Below are positions 5,866 through 16,964 of a DNA stretch of 27,204 nucleotides, piece after piece. Made by a program: the position numbers and the translations under genes. The notes under the pieces were generated by a model. That model did not search any database, was not told the origin of the DNA, and worked only from the letters and a program-made list of their open reading frames with translations. Source of the DNA: a virus; UHGV virus genome UHGV-0165622. One strand, 5' to 3'. How positions within the stretch are numbered: the first letter of the stretch is position 1; every line of letters starts with the position of its first letter.

Positions 5866-5931
5866 ACTCATCTACAATCTTGCGCGGGGCTGAACTCCCG
5901 CTGAGTAACACCGTGCCACCGGAGAAAACCG

Positions 5932-6210
5932 ATGGCACGCAACGCAAAATATTACAAACATGATAATTCGACCGTTCTTGCCCACACGCACGAGCGGTAT
6001 TCTCACGCATTTAAGTCAGACTGGTACCAGCATCCCCCATGCACTGAAGAACAGGCCGAATGGCTGATTCATAACTACCGCAGACGTGGATATGAGTTTA
6101 GGAAAGCCCTCACCCTCGATTATCGTCACTGGATAATCTACGTCAGACTCCCTTATTCCGAACGCCCACCGCGTCCGTCCCGCACATTCCAGCAACGCAT
6201 CTGGAGGTAA
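5932..6210 (+). CDS. Hypothetical basic protein
   Basis: 92-aa ORF ending 1 nt before the GTG start of the DUF968 gene. Confidence 0.45.
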   Translation: MARNAKYYKHDNSTVLAHTHERYSHAFKSDWYQHPPCTEEQAEWLIHNYRRRGYEFRKALTLDYRHWIIYVRLPYSERPPRPSRTFQQRIWR

Positions 6211-11545: not shown

Positions 11546-11901
11546 TAAAAAAAGCCGCCAGCGGTAGGAATGGAAGCTGGCGGAGGTAATCCCAATGGAG
11601 AATGTAAAGAAAAGATGCTTTCGACATCAATCATTTCTAAATGAAAACAGTTCTCATTGTCAACCATAACGGTAAGAAATTATGACATTTATTCATCAGG
11701 TAATGCTGTACTTCTGTATGGCAGTCTGTGTTATGTATCTTCTTTCGGGTGGGTACAGGGCAGTGCGCGATTTCTGGCGCAGGCAGATTGATAAAAGGGC
11801 CGCTGAGAGAATCAGCGCCAGTCAGTCAGCCGGAAGCAAACCCGAAGATCCGCTCATTCCGTAGTCACTTTCTTGACAACACCTTTCAACGAGAAAATCC
11901 C

Positions 11902-12147
11902 ATGTCAGAAATCACATCCCTGGTCACTGCTGAGGCAGTGAAGGAAGTCCTGCGCTCTGAAGAAGTCCTGAGCGCACTGAAACAGAAACTCCGCCAGAAC
12001 CTTGAGTCGCGTCTTGATGCAGAAGTGGATGCCATTCTGGATGAGCTGCTGGGCGTACCAGCGGTTCCGGAGCCGGAAGGTATCGCGGGTGACGGGAGTG
12101 CTTCAGATGGCGGTGAACCCACACCTGACAGCGACATGATGATGTAA
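11902..12147 (+). CDS. Hypothetical acidic protein upstream of the holin
   Basis: 82-aa [25 protein letters not shown]... Confidence 0.45.
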
Positions 12148-12223
12148 GCCTGCGCAAGGGACCATCGGTGTGTGCCGGTGGTCTTTATATTGTTGTGAGC
12201 TTCCGGATAACGGGAGACGGGGT

Positions 12224-12439
12224 ATGTACCAGATGGAAAAAATCACAACAGGTGTGTCATACACCACGTCAGCGGTGGGAACGGGCTACTGGTTCCTGCA
12301 GTTGCTGGACAGGGTTTCCCCGTCTCAGTGGGCGGCAATAGGCGTGCTGGGGAGTCTGCTGTTTGGGCTGCTGACGTACCTGACTAACCTGTATTTCAAA
12401 ATCAAAGAGGACCGGCGTAAGGCGGCGCGGGGAGAGTAA
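12224..12439 (+). CDS. Holin (class II, dual-start MYQM), Stx-phage S type
   Basis: 71 aa; two hydrophobic helices, charged C-terminus [13 protein letters not shown]; dual Met start; GGGAGACGGGG Shine-Dalgarno. Confidence 0.85.
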
Positions 12440-12440
12440 A

Positions 12441-13334
12441 GTGATGAATAAAAAATATGAACTGGTTGTTAAGGGGATAAATAATTACGGGGATAAGGTT
12501 ACTGTTACTGTGAAGCCGGAAGGTGACGGGCAAGCGTCGCTGTTGTTGCCAGATGTGGCGATTAGTCTTGACCGTACTGAAGGTGCCACGCTGGAGTTTT
12601 ACGAAGCTGAGGCGAAAAAGCAGGCGAAGCAGTTTTTCATGGATGTTGCTGCCGGGTTATGTGAATGGAACGAACCGTTGCCGGAAAAGCGCCCCGTAAT
12701 TTTAGAGGCGCAGGATGTGTTGATAACCTACAAAGGAAAGCTACCGGGAAGAATTACTTGTTCTCTGAAGATGCCGCCGTCAACACTGCGGTCAGAAAAA
12801 GATGATGTTGAATCACGTATTGAAAAACTGGAGAGCTACGTCGTTGAGCTGAATAAGAAATGGTCGATATTGGTGCCTTCTGGCGATGAAAAGCAGTTTG
12901 CTGCGTTTGACGATTATTGTCGGAAAGTGATGAGCAGAAATCTCGCAGAGTGTTTCAGTATTCATAATGATAATTTCAGTGACCCGGAATGGGAGTGTAA
13001 CCGGCCATCCTTTGTTGTATCCGGTGATGCTGGGAAAATAACCATCTCAGAAAATGGGAAAGTAACACCTCCATCGCACCAGCACAGTGAGGAGCTCATT
13101 GAATTTGCCATTGATTACCTGAAGAACAATAAAAAGCAGGGGCTGATGAAGCGCGTTGGCCGTTGCATGGGATATCTTCAGGTAGCCGCTGAGATTGAAG
13201 CGCTGGCCAGTGGTGCTGATAAGGATGCAATTGTGCGGGAGGCTCTTCTTCGTGATTTTAATACTCCACCCTTTAAAAAAGTGCCGGCTTACTGGCTTCA
13301 TCCGGGGCTGACTTATCTTAAAGTGCGTATTTAG
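12441..13334 (+). CDS. Unknown 297-aa protein inserted between holin and endolysin
   Basis: ORF starts 2 nt after the holin stop with GGGGAGAG Shine-Dalgarno and ends 36 nt before the endolysin; no recognisable domain; lower GC than neighbours. Confidence 0.7.
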   Translation: MMNKKYELVVKGINNYGDKVTVTVKPEGDGQASLLLPDVAISLDRTEGATLEFYEAEAKKQAKQFFMDVAAGLCEWNEPLPEKRPVILEAQDVLITYKGKLPGRITCSLKMPPSTLRSEKDDVESRIEKLESYVVELNKKWSILVPSGDEKQFAAFDDYCRKVMSRNLAECFSIHNDNFSDPEWECNRPSFVVSGDAGKITISENGKVTPPSHQHSEELIEFAIDYLKNNKKQGLMKRVGRCMGYLQVAAEIEALASGADKDAIVREALLRDFNTPPFKKVPAYWLHPGLTYLKVRI

Positions 13335-13370
13335 TGGGCCAGGGACAGCGGCTGAATATTTAATATATCC

Positions 13371-13904
13371 ATGAACACCAAAATCAAATACGGCCTGTCG
13401 GCTGCCGTTCTGGCGCTGATTGCCGCTGGTGCGCCTGCGCCTGACATTCTCGACCAGTTTCTGGATGAAAAGGAAGGCAACCACACCACGGCATACCGTG
13501 ATGGTGCAGGTATCTGGACCATCTGCCGTGGTGCCATCATGGTGGATGGCAAACCTGTCGTTCCGGGCATGAAGTTGTCGAAGGAAAAATGCGACCAGGT
13601 TAACGCCATTGAGCGTGATAAGGCGCTGGCATGGGTGGAGAAAAACATCAAAGTGCCGCTGACCGAACCCCAGAAAGCGGGGATCGCGTCATTCTGTCCG
13701 TACAACATTGGTCCCGGTAAGTGTTTCCCGTCGACGTTTTACAGACGAATTAATGCTGGTGATCGAAAAGGTGCCTGCGAAGCGATTCGCTGGTGGATTA
13801 AGGACGGTGGCAGAGACTGCCGTATTCGTTCAAACAACTGTTACGGTCAGGTATCCCGTCGTGACCAGGAGAGCGCGCTGGCGTGCTGGGGTATCGACAG
13901 ATAA
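13371..13904 (+). CDS. SAR endolysin (phage lysozyme R, T4-lysozyme fold)
   Basis: 177 aa; N-terminal signal-anchor-release segment GLSAAVLALIAAGAPAP; catalytic region EGNHTTAYRDGAGIWTICRG typical of P21/933W R. Confidence 0.9.
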   Translation: MNTKIKYGLSAAVLALIAAGAPAPDILDQFLDEKEGNHTTAYRDGAGIWTICRGAIMVDGKPVVPGMKLSKEKCDQVNAIERDKALAWVEKNIKVPLTEPQKAGIASFCPYNIGPGKCFPSTFYRRINAGDRKGACEAIRWWIKDGGRDCRIRSNNCYGQVSRRDQESALACWGIDR

Positions 13905-14257: not shown

Positions 14258-14389
14258 ATGTCAGACAAACTCATAACGCTGGCGAAGATCCTCTGTGTAA
14301 TTGTCGGCATTTCATTTTCACTAATGCTGGTTGCTCTTTTTCTTTCCATGGCCTGGATGATGTTGTCTTCGTCGGGGTTGCTGGGGTGA
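14258..14389 (+). CDS. Small hydrophobic peptide (43 aa, not in ORF track)
   Basis: Strong Shine-Dalgarno GAAGGGAGG 7 nt upstream of ATG; single predicted transmembrane helix; stop overlaps Rz start. Confidence 0.3.
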
Positions 14390-14859
14390 ACATAAACCGA
14401 ATGCTTTCCGCGTTTATCGTTATTCTGCTGGTGGCCTGTGGTGCGCTGTGGATGGCAACAGACCATTACCGTGATAACGCGATTACCTACAAAGCGCAGC
14501 GCGATAACAAAGCCAGTGAACTGAAGCTGGCGAACGCAACCATTACTGATATGCAGGTGCGCCAGCGCGATGTTGCTGCGCTCGATGCAAAATACTCGAG
14601 GGAATTAGCCGATGCGAGAGCTGAAAATGAAACTCTTCGCGCTGACGTTGCCGCTGGTCGTAAGCGCCTGCGGATCAACGCCACCTGTCCAGGCTCCGTG
14701 CGTGAAGCCCCCACCACCTCCGGCGTGGATAATGCAACCGGCCCCCAACTGGCAGACACCGTTACACGGGATTATTTCACCCTCAGAGAGCGGCTGATGA
14801 CGATGCACAAGCAACTGGAAGGGGCACAGGACTATATCCGCACTCAGTGCCTGAAATAA
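14386..14859 (+). CDS. Rz inner-membrane spanin (i-spanin)
   Basis: 157 aa; N-terminal TM helix then [15 protein letters not shown] coiled-coil region typical of Rz; GTG start. Confidence 0.8.
14627..14797 (+). CDS. Rz1 outer-membrane lipoprotein spanin (o-spanin), embedded in the +1 frame of Rz
   Basis: Lipobox LVVSAC followed by a proline-rich segment (PPPPPAW), fully nested within Rz. Confidence 0.7.
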
Positions 14860-15169
14860 GTTTTGTTGATGCGCCGTATCGTCGCTATATTCCCTCATTA
14901 ACAGAGACCGCAGCCCGACAGGGAGACTCCTCTGCGCGAGTGTGCGGGGATAATTAAAAACGATGCACACCGGGTTTTTACCGCGTTAATGATTCGCGGG
15001 TTTATCCCGGTGCGATGGTGGAAGAAACAGGAAGCTGTATTACAGAAAGTGCTACTACTGTATCCCGATGCGATGTATGTAATGTGAGTCAGATAATGGC
15101 ACAGGATGTGGTGATGTGGCAGTCTGGAACACAGGATATATTGTCAGAATAAGACCCGTAGGAATAAAA

Positions 15170-15496
15170 ATGAAAAGACGCCTTTTACTACTTTTTCTGT
15201 TATCTGTCCTGGCAGTGGGATGCTCGCAGCAAAAAGCTGATGAGCCCCGGCAATTAGTGACGGTGTATCCACGATATCCGGAATATGCTGCAGCAAATTA
15301 TATCAAGGGGCTGGTTGAGGTTAAGTTCGATATTGGTGCTGATGGGACTGTGACACGGATCGTTTTTCTCCGCTCAGAGCCTCATAATTTGTTTCGTGAT
15401 GAAGTGGTGAAGGCCATGGCGAAATGGCGATTTGAAAAGAATCGCCCCTGTCAGGGAGTGAAGAGACAATTTATCTTTACGCCGTCACGTCCTTGA
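15170..15496 (+). CDS. Lipoprotein with TonB C-terminal-like domain (moron in the bor slot)
   Basis: 108 aa; signal peptide with lipobox LAVGC; YPRYPEYAAANYIKGLVEVKFDIGADGTV resembles the TonB C-terminal domain; Shine-Dalgarno AGGA upstream. Confidence 0.6.
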   Translation: MKRRLLLLFLLSVLAVGCSQQKADEPRQLVTVYPRYPEYAAANYIKGLVEVKFDIGADGTVTRIVFLRSEPHNLFRDEVVKAMAKWRFEKNRPCQGVKRQFIFTPSRP

Positions 15497-15618
15497 TGCT
15501 TCCAGGTAGAGAGGGGCTGGACGCAGGAGAAAAATGAAAGAGCCAGCGGTTATATTTTTGTCATGGCTGACGAGGAATGATGGAAGAAGGCGTTGTATGC
15601 CACACAACGCCTCACTGT

Positions 15619-15972
15619 TCATTTCTTCTTTTTCTCTGGTGGAACCCGATGAATAAGAGTTGCACTGGTTTCCGATGAGATGGCGATATACTCGGGCAAA
15701 GTATGCTGGCAGTTTTCCAACTGGTCAAAAATACCTGCTCTCGTCTGTTGCAATGCCTGCAGCATGCGGCGGCAATGCGCCTTGCTTTTACTAACCATCT
15801 TTCCTTCCTCTATCAGTCGCTGCGTGAACTCATCATGTAATACCAGGTAAATGCGGATGTTATCGGTTTTGGCTACGCAGCATAGTACAAAACGGACAGG
15901 TGCATCCCGGGACGGGGGAGGCGTCACATGTCCCTGTGATGGTTGTTCCGGGTAATGCACTGTGTGGGGCAT
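15619..15972 (-). CDS. Hypothetical protein on the opposite strand near cos
   Basis: 117-aa minus-strand ORF; an upstream minus-strand ORF in another frame (to 16111) encodes a signal-peptide-like N-terminus MKIRNILAISLATSSFS, so a frameshifted gene is possible. Confidence 0.35.
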   Translation of the reverse strand: MPHTVHYPEQPSQGHVTPPPSRDAPVRFVLCCVAKTDNIRIYLVLHDEFTQRLIEEGKMVSKSKAHCRRMLQALQQTRAGIFDQLENCQHTLPEYIAISSETSATLIHRVPPEKKKK

Positions 15973-16249
15973 AAAAATGTCCGATAATTTTACTTTCTAC
16001 CGCAGTTAGTTGATTCGTTGGTCCTGGTAGCACATTGGGCGAGGATTTAAATGCCAGGCAACTGAAGGATGATGTTGCAAGGGAGATAGCGAGAATATTT
16101 CTGATTTTCATTTGATGATGCCTCTGTGTGAAATGACGGTAAACGACGCACTTGTGCCGGCACATAATAGCAAGCACCATAATAGATCAGATTCGATTCT
16201 TGCTGTAAGTGATAATTATTCTCGTTTTCGGGTCCTTTCCGTCGATCCA

Positions 16250-16450
16250 ACAGGTTACGGGGCGGCGACCTCGCGGGTTTTCGCTATTTATGAAAATTTT
16301 CCGGGAACCATGTCCGGTTTCTCTTCAAGTTAACTATATGAAAAATAAAAAAAGAGGTCTTCTGTGAACCGGACATGCACAAAAAATAGACATGTAAGCC
16401 GGACATGACCGGTTTTGTTGTGATTGTGAAGTGAGAGTTTTTGCGAGGTG
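16250..16450 (+). other. cos site: cosN cohesive-end sequence GGGCGGCGACCT at 16260-16271 with downstream cosB-like repeats
   Basis: acgGGGCGGCGACCTcgcgggttttcgctatttatgaaaattttccgg matches the lambda left end from memory; three copies of the motif CCGGACATG (one inverted) between 16307 and 16407, immediately upstream of Nu1. Confidence 0.8.
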
Positions 16451-16454
16451 AGGA

Positions 16455-16964
16455 GTGGCTACGCAGACTGAAGTTGCCAGGCATTTAAGTCTGACCGATC
16501 GCCAGCTTCGCAGATTGCAGAAATTGCCGGGTGCCCCGATATCGAATAAGCGAGGGCAACTGGATCTGGATGCCTGGCGCGATTTTTACATATCGTATCT
16601 GAGAAGAAGTAAAAACGATGTGCCTGATGGCGATAGCGAAGACGACTATGAGGAGAAATTGCTTATTGCCAGATGGGAACTGACAGCAGAACAGGCTGTT
16701 ACACAGCAGTTAAAAAATGAGGTGTCAAAAGGAAAACTTATTGATACCGGGTTCTGTATTTTTGCCCTCAGCAAGCTGGCAATGGCGTTATCCAGTACGC
16801 TTGATTCCATCCCTTTATCCATGCAGCGACAGTTTCCTGATTTAACACCGCGCCATCTTGACCATCTGAAAACCCTTATTGCGAAGGGGGCAAATCAGTG
16901 TGCGCGGGCGGGGGATAAATTACCGGATTTACTCGATGAATATATCAGAGCAACAACTGAATAA
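16455..16964 (+). CDS. Terminase small subunit (lambda Nu1-like)
   Basis: 169 aa; N-terminal winged-HTH and LSKLAMALSSTLDSIPLSMQRQFPDL region parallel lambda Nu1; GTG start after GAGGTGAGGAG Shine-Dalgarno. Confidence 0.85.
   Translation: MATQTEVARHLSLTDRQLRRLQKLPGAPISNKRGQLDLDAWRDFYISYLRRSKNDVPDGDSEDDYEEKLLIARWELTAEQAVTQQLKNEVSKGKLIDTGFCIFALSKLAMALSSTLDSIPLSMQRQFPDLTPRHLDHLKTLIAKGANQCARAGDKLPDLLDEYIRATTE

What the first reader, a model, noticed from the sequence alone, without database searches (positions are those of the whole stretch)
15170..15496. Phage-encoded lipoprotein with a TonB C-terminal-like domain where bor-type morons usually sit
The ORF has a lipoprotein signal (lipobox LAVGC) followed by about 90 residues resembling the TonB C-terminal domain. 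Established knowledge: phage lipoproteins such as Llp and Cor block TonB-dependent receptors to exclude superinfecting phages. Inference: a periplasm-facing TonB-C mimic tethered to the membrane could bind TonB boxes of outer-membrane transporters and block TonB-dependent phage or colicin entry, or alter iron uptake.
Basis: partly seen in the sequence, partly recalled or inferred. Interest (0 to 1): 0.6.

Follow-up and report, generated by a model that had tools for sequence, protein, structure and literature searches.

The report
Phage lipoprotein carrying TonB's C-terminal domain
A prophage gene found in about a quarter of complete E. coli genomes encodes a small lipoprotein, predicted to sit in the outer membrane, that is a stand-alone copy of the receptor-docking domain of TonB; databases annotate it but I found no study of it, and it may act as a decoy that dampens TonB-dependent entry of phages, colicins or iron carriers.

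Summary
Window 15170-15496 (+) encodes a 108-aa protein with a Shine-Dalgarno site, a lipoprotein signal peptide (LAVGC, Ser at +2, so predicted outer-membrane sorting), a 7-residue tether and a TonB_C domain (Pfam 49 bits against a cut-off of 24.6). It is 40% identical to E. coli TonB 150-230. The AF2 model (pLDDT 87) superposes on TonB from the BtuB and FhuA complexes at 0.9-1.0 A.

The gene is already annotated: phage 21 gene CPT_21_73, 'TonB family protein' in RefSeq. This allele is in 1225 of 5426 complete E. coli genomes and a second allele is in 415. dN/dS between the two is 0.12. I found no functional study.

It is not a broken tonB. It belongs to a separate Enterobacterales family of about 105-135-aa lipoprotein TonB domains, some chromosomal and some phage-borne. 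Many relatives carry strong Fur-box-like sequences just upstream. This E. coli allele does not.

It does not replace bor: phage 21 has both. Phage 21 uses LamB, so this is not Llp/Cor-type blocking of the phage's own receptor.

The decoy idea is plausible but untested. TonB R166, R158 and Q160 are not conserved. Interest is moderate to high. I rate it a new variant of a known kind.

The parts
15170..15496 (+). CDS of the 108-aa TonB_C lipoprotein, stop codon included. It is identical to RefSeq WP_000830178.1 'TonB family protein' and to phage 21 CPT_21_73.
15160..15163 (+). Shine-Dalgarno AGGA, 6 nt upstream of the ATG.
   Evidence: phage 21 annotates a ribosome-binding site at the same place
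15170..15223 (+). Lipoprotein signal peptide, residues 1-18 (MKRR n-region, Leu-rich core, lipobox LAVGC). Cys18 is the predicted lipidated first residue of the mature protein.
   Evidence: PROSITE-type lipobox regex. The Cys is kept in at least 90% of 33 family members. No member has Asp at +2.
15224..15244 (+). Short tether, residues 19-25 (SQQKADE), between the lipid anchor and the folded domain.
   Evidence: Low pLDDT before residue 26. The distance from Cys to the PxYP motif is only 14-23 residues across the family.
15245..15481 (+). TonB C-terminal-type domain, residues 26-104. Residue i corresponds to E. coli TonB residue i+127, so this equals TonB 153-231. Order of elements: short strand, helix 1, strands 1 and 2, helix 2, strand 3. 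The protein ends 4 residues after strand 3.
15087..15097 (+). AGTCAGATAAT, the only upstream block invariant among four E. coli alleles. GATAAT at 15092-15097 is a possible -10 hexamer with no recognisable -35.
   Evidence: it did not pass the promoter scan
14867..15060 (+). Conserved lambdoid backbone segment that forms the 5' junction of the module. It is not specific to this gene.
   Evidence: It is 85-90% identical between alleles A and B, against 73% for the gene. It is present in 432 phage records including lambda.
14386..14859 (+). Context: Rz i-spanin, with the Rz1 o-spanin embedded at 14612-14797. The lysis cassette already has its own spanins.
   Evidence: phrog_13 and phrog_3198
16230..16236 (+). 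Context: cosQ, placed by transfer from the phage 21 annotation. The cos end of phage 21 maps to about 16259, and the terminase small subunit starts at 16455.

Best explanation
[quoted passage not shown] There, a very short tether holds a stand-alone, non-energised copy of the TonB C-terminal domain at the periplasmic face.

Shown here: the lipobox, the absence of Asp at +2, the short tether, the TonB C-terminal fold including the edge strand beta-3, purifying selection, and carriage as a phage moron.

Inferred: like TonB, the domain captures TonB-box-type beta-strands by adding them to the edge of strand 3. These strands could belong to outer-membrane TonB-dependent transporters, or to incoming group B colicins and similar toxins as they emerge on the periplasmic side. 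The domain has no link to ExbB-ExbD and cannot pull, so it would compete with TonB. The expected result is reduced TonB-dependent traffic: T1/phi80-type phages, colicins B, D, Ia and M, catecholate microcins, and to some degree siderophores and vitamin B12. That would be exclusion of other agents rather than blocking of the phage's own receptor.

In this E. coli allele the gene appears to be transcribed with the late (lysis and packaging) operon. In many relatives the gene appears to be Fur-regulated.
For: Domain identity: Pfam and TIGRFAM hits above their cut-offs; 40% identity to E. coli TonB 150-230; the model superposes on transporter-bound TonB at 0.9-1.0 A.

Fold-determining residues and the aromatic residues are kept: P153, L156, P161, Y163, P164, G174, F180, D181, G186, P198, F202, W213, R214, Y215(F), E216, P220, F230, together with an amphipathic strand 3.

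Anchor: 34 of 39 sequences checked (family members plus a few outliers) pass the lipobox pattern, none has Asp at +2, and the tether is always short.

Selection and spread: dN/dS 0.12. Allele A is in 1225 and allele B in 415 of 5426 complete E. coli genomes. The same slot after the lysis genes is used in four unrelated phage backbones.

Precedent: overproduced periplasmic TonB domain inhibits TonB-dependent iron import (Howard 2001 as cited in PMC9841981). Periplasmic phage lipoproteins can inactivate a TonB-dependent transporter from the inside (Llp, PMC9586334).

Link to iron: Fur-box-like sequences scoring 14-17 of 19 lie 18-70 nt upstream of relatives in Serratia, Klebsiella, Raoultella, Erwinia and Pantoea, including phage-borne copies. 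Each is the best match in its locus. Known K-12 Fur sites score 12-14 by the same measure.
Against: No binding or phenotype data exist, and none could be produced here.

By my recollection of the TonB-FhuA structure paper, R166 and R158 contact the transporter plug, and Q160 is the classic suppressor site. R166 is Tyr in 28 of 30 family members. R158 and Q160 positions are variable. R204 is Asp in 22 of 30. The partner surface has therefore diverged from TonB.

The family is an old lineage separate from TonB proper. Its partner need not be a TonB box.

This allele has no detectable promoter for lysogens and no Fur box. Lysogenic conversion is therefore not supported for it.

Phage 21 uses LamB, so there is no benefit through its own receptor.

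Inducing a pure TonB competitor under iron starvation, as the Fur boxes in relatives imply, seems counter-productive.

Chromosomal relatives sit in unrelated, non-iron neighbourhoods.
Confidence: 0.4

Rival explanations
1. It traps TonB itself. The outer-membrane-anchored domain pairs with the C-terminal domain of host TonB, as TonB domains pair with each other in crystals and in vivo. That would hold TonB at the outer membrane in an unproductive state. The outcome would be the same (TonB inhibition) but the target different.
For: The fold is the same as that of TonB fragments that crystallise as dimers (1u07 is the top structural match). The five aromatic residues that, by my recollection of the Postle laboratory's work, are implicated in TonB dimer cross-links are kept: F180, F202, W213, Y215(F), F230.
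Against: No direct evidence. TonB is scarce relative to transporters, so a lipoprotein made in stoichiometric amounts would be very costly to the host. Yet about 23% of complete E. coli genomes carry the gene.
Confidence: 0.15
2. It is an iron-starvation accessory protein with a positive or neutral role. Examples would be an outer-membrane docking or organising factor for the TonB system, or a peptidoglycan or envelope tether. Phages would carry it as a fitness gene for the lysogen.
For: Strong Fur-box-like sequences lie upstream of many chromosomal and phage-borne relatives. Induction together with the uptake machinery fits a helper better than an inhibitor. Many members are ordinary chromosomal genes.
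Against: There is no neighbourhood link with transporters or with exbBD. The E. coli phage allele has lost, or never had, the Fur box. A domain with no energy coupling has no obvious way to promote transport.
Confidence: 0.17
3. It is a lysis accessory or spanin-like protein, as the PHROG label 'Rz-like spanin' and its position directly after Rz/Rz1 would suggest.
For: phrog_1267 matches end to end (E 5e-43) and is labelled as a spanin. The gene follows the lysis genes on the same strand in four phage backbones.
Against: The window has its own complete Rz and embedded Rz1. The protein has a globular TonB fold, not a short proline-rich o-spanin and not a C-terminal membrane helix. Many family members are chromosomal with no lysis genes nearby. 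The interval between lysis genes and cos is a general slot for morons: bor in phage 21, KilA-N in JLK-2012.
Confidence: 0.04
4. It is a non-functional remnant of a captured tonB gene, as the labels 'TonB fragment' and 'partial tonB-like' imply, and is simply carried along.
For: Database labels. It lacks the TonB membrane anchor and proline-rich region.
Against: dN/dS is 0.12. A dedicated lipoprotein signal peptide is conserved across genera. The family forms its own clade, distinct from TonB. Occasional frameshifted copies exist but are a minority.
Confidence: 0.03

Closest known systems
C-terminal domain of E. coli TonB (residues about 150-239; PDB 1u07, 1xx3, 2gsk, 2grx)
   Same: Same fold at about 1 A rmsd and about 40% identity. 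The YP motif, the glycines and the aromatic core are kept, and strand 3 is kept. Strand 3 is the strand that pairs with the TonB box.
   Different: It has no N-terminal membrane anchor and no proline-rich spacer, so it has no coupling to ExbB-ExbD. It is attached to the opposite membrane by a lipid anchor. R166 is Tyr, R204 is Asp, and the R158 and Q160 positions are variable. It ends 4 residues after strand 3.
Soluble periplasmic TonB fragments made artificially (Howard, Herrmann, Stratilo and Braun 2001)
   Same: A TonB periplasmic domain with no energy coupling, present in the periplasm. It is reported to inhibit TonB-dependent iron import (as cited in PMC9841981).
   Different: Those were engineered, overproduced, soluble pieces of TonB itself. 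This is a natural, diverged paralogue that is lipid-anchored. I could not read the original paper.
Superinfection-exclusion lipoproteins Llp (T5) and Cor (phi80, N15, T1)
   Same: [quoted passage not shown]
   Different: No sequence or fold relationship: TonB_C is the only Pfam hit. Llp binds the FhuA plug, not the TonB box, and those phages block their own receptor. Phage 21 uses LamB, and no cor is annotated in this prophage.
Bor/Iss lipoprotein moron of lambda-like phages
   Same: A small lipoprotein gene in the interval between the lysis genes and cos. Its G+C content is lower than that of neighbouring phage genes (46.8% against 52-55%).
   Different: Bor is on the opposite strand, and by established knowledge has its own promoter and is expressed in lysogens. 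It is unrelated in sequence, and in phage 21 it sits next to this gene rather than being replaced by it.
Chromosomal lipoproteins of about 105-135 aa with a TonB_C domain in Klebsiella, Raoultella, Serratia, Erwinia, Pantoea, Rahnella and Salmonella ('TonB family protein')
   Same: Same architecture and the same clade, at 35-51% identity.
   Different: Many are ordinary chromosomal genes, found next to lacZ-lacI, dsbB-nhaB, fliD-amyA or araA. Most carry a Fur-box-like sequence, which the E. coli phage allele lacks. None has a described function that I could find.

Membership tests
TonB_C domain (Pfam PF03544 / TIGR01352) | Profile score above the curated cut-off | tested here: met
   PF03544 scores 49.2 bits against 24.6. 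TIGR01352 scores 47.4 against 27.1.
TonB_C domain (Pfam PF03544 / TIGR01352) | The alpha/beta fold of the TonB C-terminal domain | tested here: met
   The AF2 model has pLDDT 87. Foldseek top hits are 1u07, 2gsk_B, 1xx3 and 2grx_C, with TM 0.86-0.92 and rmsd 0.9-1.5 A.
TonB_C domain (Pfam PF03544 / TIGR01352) | Binding of a TonB-box strand along strand 3 | not testable with these tools
   Strand 3 is present (residues 94-103), but no complex prediction or binding assay was available.
Full-length energy transducer TonB (NCBIfam PRK10819 equivalogs) | Whole-protein score above the equivalog cut-off, N-terminal membrane anchor and proline-rich spacer | tested here: not met
   The best equivalog scores 69 bits against a cut-off of 315. 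The match covers only profile positions 156-240. The N-terminus is a lipoprotein signal peptide.
Bacterial lipoprotein sorted to the outer membrane | Lipobox with an invariant Cys after a positively charged n-region and a hydrophobic core | tested here: met
   LAVGC with Cys18 passes a PROSITE-type pattern. 34 of 39 sequences checked pass.
Bacterial lipoprotein sorted to the outer membrane | No Asp at +2 (the Lol avoidance signal) | tested here: met
   +2/+3 is Ser-Gln. No relative has Asp at +2. Actual lipidation and localisation were not tested.
Llp/Cor superinfection-exclusion lipoproteins | Sequence relationship to Llp or Cor | tested here: not met
   The only Pfam hit at E up to 1 is TonB_C. 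There are no PADLOC hits.
Llp/Cor superinfection-exclusion lipoproteins | Inactivates the receptor that the encoding phage itself uses | tested here: not met
   Phage 21, which carries the identical gene, uses LamB. LamB is not TonB-dependent.
Llp/Cor superinfection-exclusion lipoproteins | Confers resistance to phages that use a TonB-dependent transporter | not testable with these tools
   This needs plating assays.
Spanin (label of PHROG 1267) | Provides the outer-membrane or inner-membrane spanin of the lysis cassette | tested here: not met
   Rz (phrog_13) and the embedded Rz1 (phrog_3198) are already present at 14386-14859. The fold is TonB-like.
Moron (autonomous extra gene in a phage genome) | Present or absent between otherwise similar phages, with deviating composition | tested here: met
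   Only 15 phage records carry it, against 432 that carry the flanking backbone segment. G+C is 46.8% and GC3 43.5%, against GC3 of about 59% in Rz and terminase.
Moron (autonomous extra gene in a phage genome) | Own promoter and terminator | tested here: inconclusive
   There is no sigma-70 consensus hit upstream on the + strand and no terminator directly downstream. Only a conserved GATAAT at 15092-15097 was found.
Fur regulon | Fur box overlapping the promoter | tested here: not met
   For this allele the best upstream match is 10-11 of 19 (shuffle p 0.86). Allele B scores 13 of 19. Many relatives score 14-17 of 19. Controls: tonB 12, fepA-fes 13, fhuA 14.

The most novel reading that the evidence does not exclude
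A widespread family in Enterobacterales, carried by both phages and chromosomes, consists of outer-membrane-anchored TonB C-terminal domains that act as decoys. Placed directly under the transporters, they would intercept TonB-box strands, either those of the transporters or those of incoming colicins, microcins or phage proteins. That would give broad protection against everything that needs TonB to enter. In most lineages the gene would be switched on by iron starvation through Fur, which is when the entry routes are most exposed. In the common E. coli prophages it would be expressed with the late genes. This would be a new exclusion mechanism based on mimicry of a host energy transducer.
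Probability: 0.3. Interest if true: 0.8.

Novelty: new variant of a known kind. Interest (0 to 1): 0.6.

Why it matters
TonB-dependent transporters are major gateways for phages, colicins, microcins and siderophore-antibiotic conjugates, and for iron during infection. If a gene present in about 23% of complete E. coli genomes (plus 8% for a second allele) tunes that gateway, it would affect three things: predictions of phage-therapy host range, bacteriocin-mediated competition in the gut, and susceptibility to 'Trojan horse' antibiotics. It would also add transducer mimicry to the known ways in which prophages protect or remodel their hosts. The experiments are simple and use classical reagents: phage 21, T1, phi80 and the colicins.

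Tried and rejected
1. Fur box upstream of this gene: none. The best match is 10-11 of 19 and is no better than shuffles.
2. Sigma-70 promoter or intrinsic terminator flanking the gene on the + strand: none at the tool's threshold.
3. Known RNA family in 14700-16500: only a chance-level microRNA hit.
4. Known defence-system protein: no PADLOC hit.
5. The small upstream ORF 15015-15152 (annotated in phage 21) as a conserved partner gene: its reading frame is not kept in allele B, and it has no PHROG hit.
6. The highly conserved leader 14867-15060 as a gene-specific regulatory element: rejected. It is a general lambdoid backbone segment found in 432 phage records including lambda.
7. A link to a particular receptor-binding protein: the prophage's J C-terminus groups with long-tailed Stx-phage J proteins, while phage 21's J is lambda-like. 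There is no consistent association, and no cor is annotated.
8. Guilt by association for chromosomal relatives: their neighbours are unrelated to iron or TonB.
9. Literature: ten full-text searches found no functional study. The searches included the accession numbers, 'tonB-like membrane protein', 'phage-encoded TonB' and 'TonB decoy'. The Howard 2001 paper itself is not held.
10. The first AF2 run with a 6-sequence alignment was too weak to use (pLDDT 61).
11. The library of predicted viral structures (BFVD) gave no significant match.
12. One distant relative (P0043) was not found in viral contigs.

Full report
WHAT IS THERE. Window 15170-15496 (+) is a 108-codon ORF. AGGA lies 6 nt before the ATG. 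The product begins MKRRLLLLFLLSVLAVGC. This is a positively charged n-region, a leucine-rich core and a lipobox with Cys18, and it passes a PROSITE-type lipoprotein pattern. The residues after the Cys are Ser-Gln, not Asp, so the E. coli sorting rule (established knowledge) predicts transfer to the outer membrane. Seven residues later the TonB homology starts.

Pfam TonB_C scores 49.2 bits (cut-off 24.6) and TIGR01352 scores 47.4 (cut-off 27.1). The full-length TonB equivalog models match only with their last ~85 positions and fall far below their cut-offs (69 against 315 bits). Against solved structures the best matches are E. coli TonB C-terminal domains, with E about 1e-14 and about 40% identity. 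The register is phage residue i = TonB residue i+127. I checked the TonB sequence used for this mapping against K-12 tonB.

A first AF2 model from six near-identical sequences was poor. With 33 diverse homologues the model reached pLDDT 87, above 95 for residues 26-104. It superposes on TonB taken from the BtuB complex (rmsd 1.0 A over 79 residues, TM 0.92), on TonB from the FhuA complex (0.9 A over 73) and on free TonB (1u07, 1xx3).

WHERE IT COMES FROM. The window is a lambda-like prophage of E. coli. A 2.2-kb stretch around the gene is 100% identical to many chromosomes, for example strain 7/2, where RefSeq calls the product 'TonB family protein' WP_000830178.1. Upstream are a holin, a lysozyme, Rz (14386-14859) and the embedded Rz1 (14612-14797). 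Downstream are cos, the small and large terminase subunits and the head and tail genes.

The identical protein is gene CPT_21_73 of the classical phage 21, annotated 'TonB C-terminal domain protein'. It also occurs in phages ev017 ('Partial tonB-like membrane protein encoded within prophage CP-933N'), Perceval ('TonB fragment') and three PhiR phages. The gene is therefore already annotated. The phage 21 genome announcement does not discuss it. A 2024 review of superinfection exclusion has nothing like it. Ten full-text searches found no functional work.

IS IT A REAL, SELECTED GENE? This allele (A) is present at 95% nucleotide identity or more in 1225 of 5426 complete E. coli genomes. A second allele (B, 72% protein identity) is present in 415, including O157:H7 and O55:H7 strains and Stx1a phages. 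Rarer intermediate alleles also exist. Between A and B, dN/dS is 0.12 with dS 1.46, and it is similarly low in the signal peptide, the tether and the domain. Some copies are frameshifted, but 58 of 82 sampled loci encode exactly the window protein. The 'remnant of tonB' reading is rejected.

POSITION AND THE bor CLAIM. The homology between alleles A and B covers window 14869-15479. Its left end coincides with the point where the window rejoins phage 21. In phage 21, bor (minus strand) sits between Rz and that point. In phage JLK-2012 a KilA-N gene sits there. In the window there is nothing. The gene therefore lies in the bor interval but does not replace bor.

The first ~190 nt of the module (14867-15060) are more conserved between the alleles than the gene itself. 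However, this segment occurs in 432 phage records including lambda, whereas the gene occurs in 15. It is a shared backbone or recombination junction, not a gene-specific element.

The gene's G+C (46.8%, GC3 43.5%) is below that of Rz and the terminase (GC3 about 59%), as expected for a moron. The same slot, after the lysis genes, on the late strand and before the terminase, is used in four unrelated backbones: the lambda-type Nu1/A phage here, the HNH-terminase phage JLK-2012, Klebsiella phage ST13-OXA48phi12.4, and a Serratia prophage. Each of the last two lineages is also found on IMG/VR viral contigs, 32 and 7 respectively.

THE WIDER FAMILY. An exhaustive profile search found many TonB_C proteins. 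The closest non-E. coli hits are proteins of about 105-135 residues with their own lipoboxes. A scan of one genome per species found them in Raoultella, Klebsiella, Serratia, Erwinia, Pantoea and Pseudescherichia. A second protein search added Rahnella and Salmonella.

The lipobox Cys is kept in at least 90% of aligned members, no member has Asp at +2, and the distance from Cys to the PxYP motif is always 14-23 residues. In a neighbour-joining tree (a rough tree without bootstrap) these lipoproteins form a clade separate from genuine TonB C-terminal domains. Phage-borne and chromosomal members are interleaved, and the E. coli phage alleles group nearest the Klebsiella/Raoultella members.

Many members are plainly chromosomal. 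They lie next to lacZ-lacI (Raoultella, Klebsiella), dsbB-nhaB (Serratia grimesii), fliD-amyA (Pantoea) and araA (Erwinia), or in other unrelated neighbourhoods. The phage gene is thus a captured member of an older lipoprotein family, not a recent piece of E. coli tonB.

AN UNEXPECTED CLUE: FUR BOXES. I scored upstream regions against the 19-bp Fur consensus GATAATGATAATCATTATC. Matches lie 18-70 nt before the start codon in:
- Serratia grimesii (17 of 19)
- the Serratia prophage and its six closest IMG/VR relatives (15-16 of 19)
- Erwinia typographi (16)
- Klebsiella R390 (16)
- Pantoea agglomerans (16)
- Raoultella lac-locus copies (15)
- R. planticola and 15 Klebsiella-type viral contigs (14)
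- Pantoea bathycoeliae (14)

In the genomic loci, each match is the best or near-best in its ~12-kb locus, and shuffle p is at most 0.001 for scores of 15 or more. By the same measure, proven K-12 Fur sites score 12 (tonB), 13 (fepA-fes) and 14 (fhuA).

The window allele has nothing comparable: 10-11 of 19, p 0.86. Allele B has 13 of 19, overlapping a perfect palindrome AGAATAAG-A-CTTATTCT whose right arm is deleted in allele A. The family as a whole therefore looks iron-regulated, which ties it to TonB biology. The common E. coli allele seems to have lost that control.

HOW IS THIS ALLELE EXPRESSED? No sigma-70 consensus site lies upstream on the + strand. No terminator separates the gene from Rz. 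No known RNA element is present. The only upstream block invariant among four E. coli alleles is AGTC(G/A)GATAAT at 15087-15097, a possible -10 with no -35. The simplest reading is co-transcription with the late operon. Expression in lysogens is not supported but is not excluded.

MECHANISM. Shown: an outer-membrane-type lipoprotein signal, a very short tether, a TonB C-terminal fold with strand 3 intact, and purifying selection. Inferred: the domain binds TonB-box-like strands by edge-strand pairing, as TonB does in 2gsk and 2grx. Because it is not coupled to ExbB-ExbD, it would compete with TonB.

There are two precedents. Overproduced periplasmic TonB domain inhibits TonB-dependent iron import (Howard et al. 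2001, known to me only through its citation in PMC9841981). Llp shows that a periplasmic phage lipoprotein can shut a TonB-dependent transporter from inside (PMC9586334).

Arguments against:
- TonB R166 is Tyr in 28 of 30 members, R204 is Asp in 22 of 30, and the R158 and Q160 positions vary. By my recollection R166 and R158 contact the FhuA plug and Q160 is the suppressor site. The partner surface has diverged.
- Phage 21 uses LamB, so the protein cannot serve exclusion through the phage's own receptor as Llp and Cor do. No cor is annotated in this prophage.
- Inducing a pure TonB competitor under iron starvation is paradoxical. A variant that avoids the paradox is selective capture of the TonB boxes of incoming colicins or phage proteins at the periplasmic exit of the transporter.

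I put the decoy or competitor mechanism at 0.4, a TonB trap at 0.15 and a positive or structural iron-starvation role at 0.17. A lysis role is at 0.04: PHROG 1267 labels the family 'Rz-like spanin', but the window has its own Rz and Rz1. A dead remnant is at 0.03.

COMPARISON AND NOVELTY. The protein is a member of the TonB_C domain family. It is not a TonB, not an Llp/Cor protein and not a spanin. The TonB fold has no significant match in the library of predicted viral protein structures, and the protein is absent from PADLOC. What this analysis adds:
- the distinct lipoprotein family
- its mixed phage and chromosomal carriage
- the Fur-box association
- the divergence of TonB's contact residues
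- the correction that it coexists with bor and is not an own-receptor blocker

I rate it a new variant of a known kind, with interest 0.6.

Noticed in passing
L091 (about 5921-5939), L093 (about 5926-5944), L096, L090, L086-L089, L085, L097, L100 5037-5055, L120-L141: Fur-box-like sequences scoring 14-17 of 19 lie 18-70 nt upstream of many TonB_C-lipoprotein genes in Serratia, Erwinia, Klebsiella, Raoultella and Pantoea, including phage-borne copies. Known K-12 Fur sites score 12-14 by the same measure. This predicts that the family belongs to the Fur regulon.
   Followed up: partly
window 16205-16229: The best Fur-consensus match in the whole window (15 of 19, GATAATTATTCTCGTTTTC, with an overlapping match of 14 of 19) lies immediately left of cosQ (16230-16236 by transfer from phage 21). 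It may simply be AT-rich cos architecture.
   Followed up: no
window 14867-15060: This non-coding segment just after Rz is 85-90% identical between phages whose adjacent genes are only about 73% identical. It occurs in 432 phage records including lambda. It looks like a conserved backbone or recombination junction in lambdoid phages. It contains a conserved hairpin, CCGCG-N9-CGCGG.
   Followed up: partly
PHROG phrog_1267 (matches window 15170-15493): PHROG 1267 matches the TonB_C lipoprotein end to end (E 5e-43) but is labelled 'Rz-like spanin'. This is probably a mis-annotation based on position and the lipobox, and it will spread through phage annotation pipelines.
   Followed up: yes
window 15619-15798 (-): A 59-aa ORF on the minus strand, convergent with the TonB_C gene, matches phrog_4843 (unknown function, E 3e-46) and RefSeq WP_000253883.1. 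Phage 21's annotation instead calls plus-strand ORFs in this stretch. Allele B phages have a different small minus-strand gene (YlcI/YnfO, DUF3950) at the same place.
   Followed up: partly
L083 3461-3477 and L146 (allele B and P0015 upstream regions); compare window 15144-15153: A perfect 8-1-8 palindrome AGAATAAG-A-CTTATTCT lies about 24-40 nt upstream of the start codon in allele B and a related allele. Its right arm is deleted in the window's allele. It is a possible operator of unknown specificity.
   Followed up: partly
window about 11700-13400 (L002 11429-12480): RefSeq marks two pseudogenes in the late and lysis region of this prophage: a truncated DUF1737 protein and a truncated YdfR family protein. 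An iraM (anti-adapter) gene lies on the opposite strand upstream. The prophage may be partly decayed.
   Followed up: no
L086-L090 (Raoultella and Klebsiella): Two distinct paralogue types of the TonB_C lipoprotein occupy the same chromosomal neighbourhood beside lacZ-lacI in different Raoultella and Klebsiella species. Raoultella planticola ATCC 33531 carries two different family members on two contigs.
   Followed up: no
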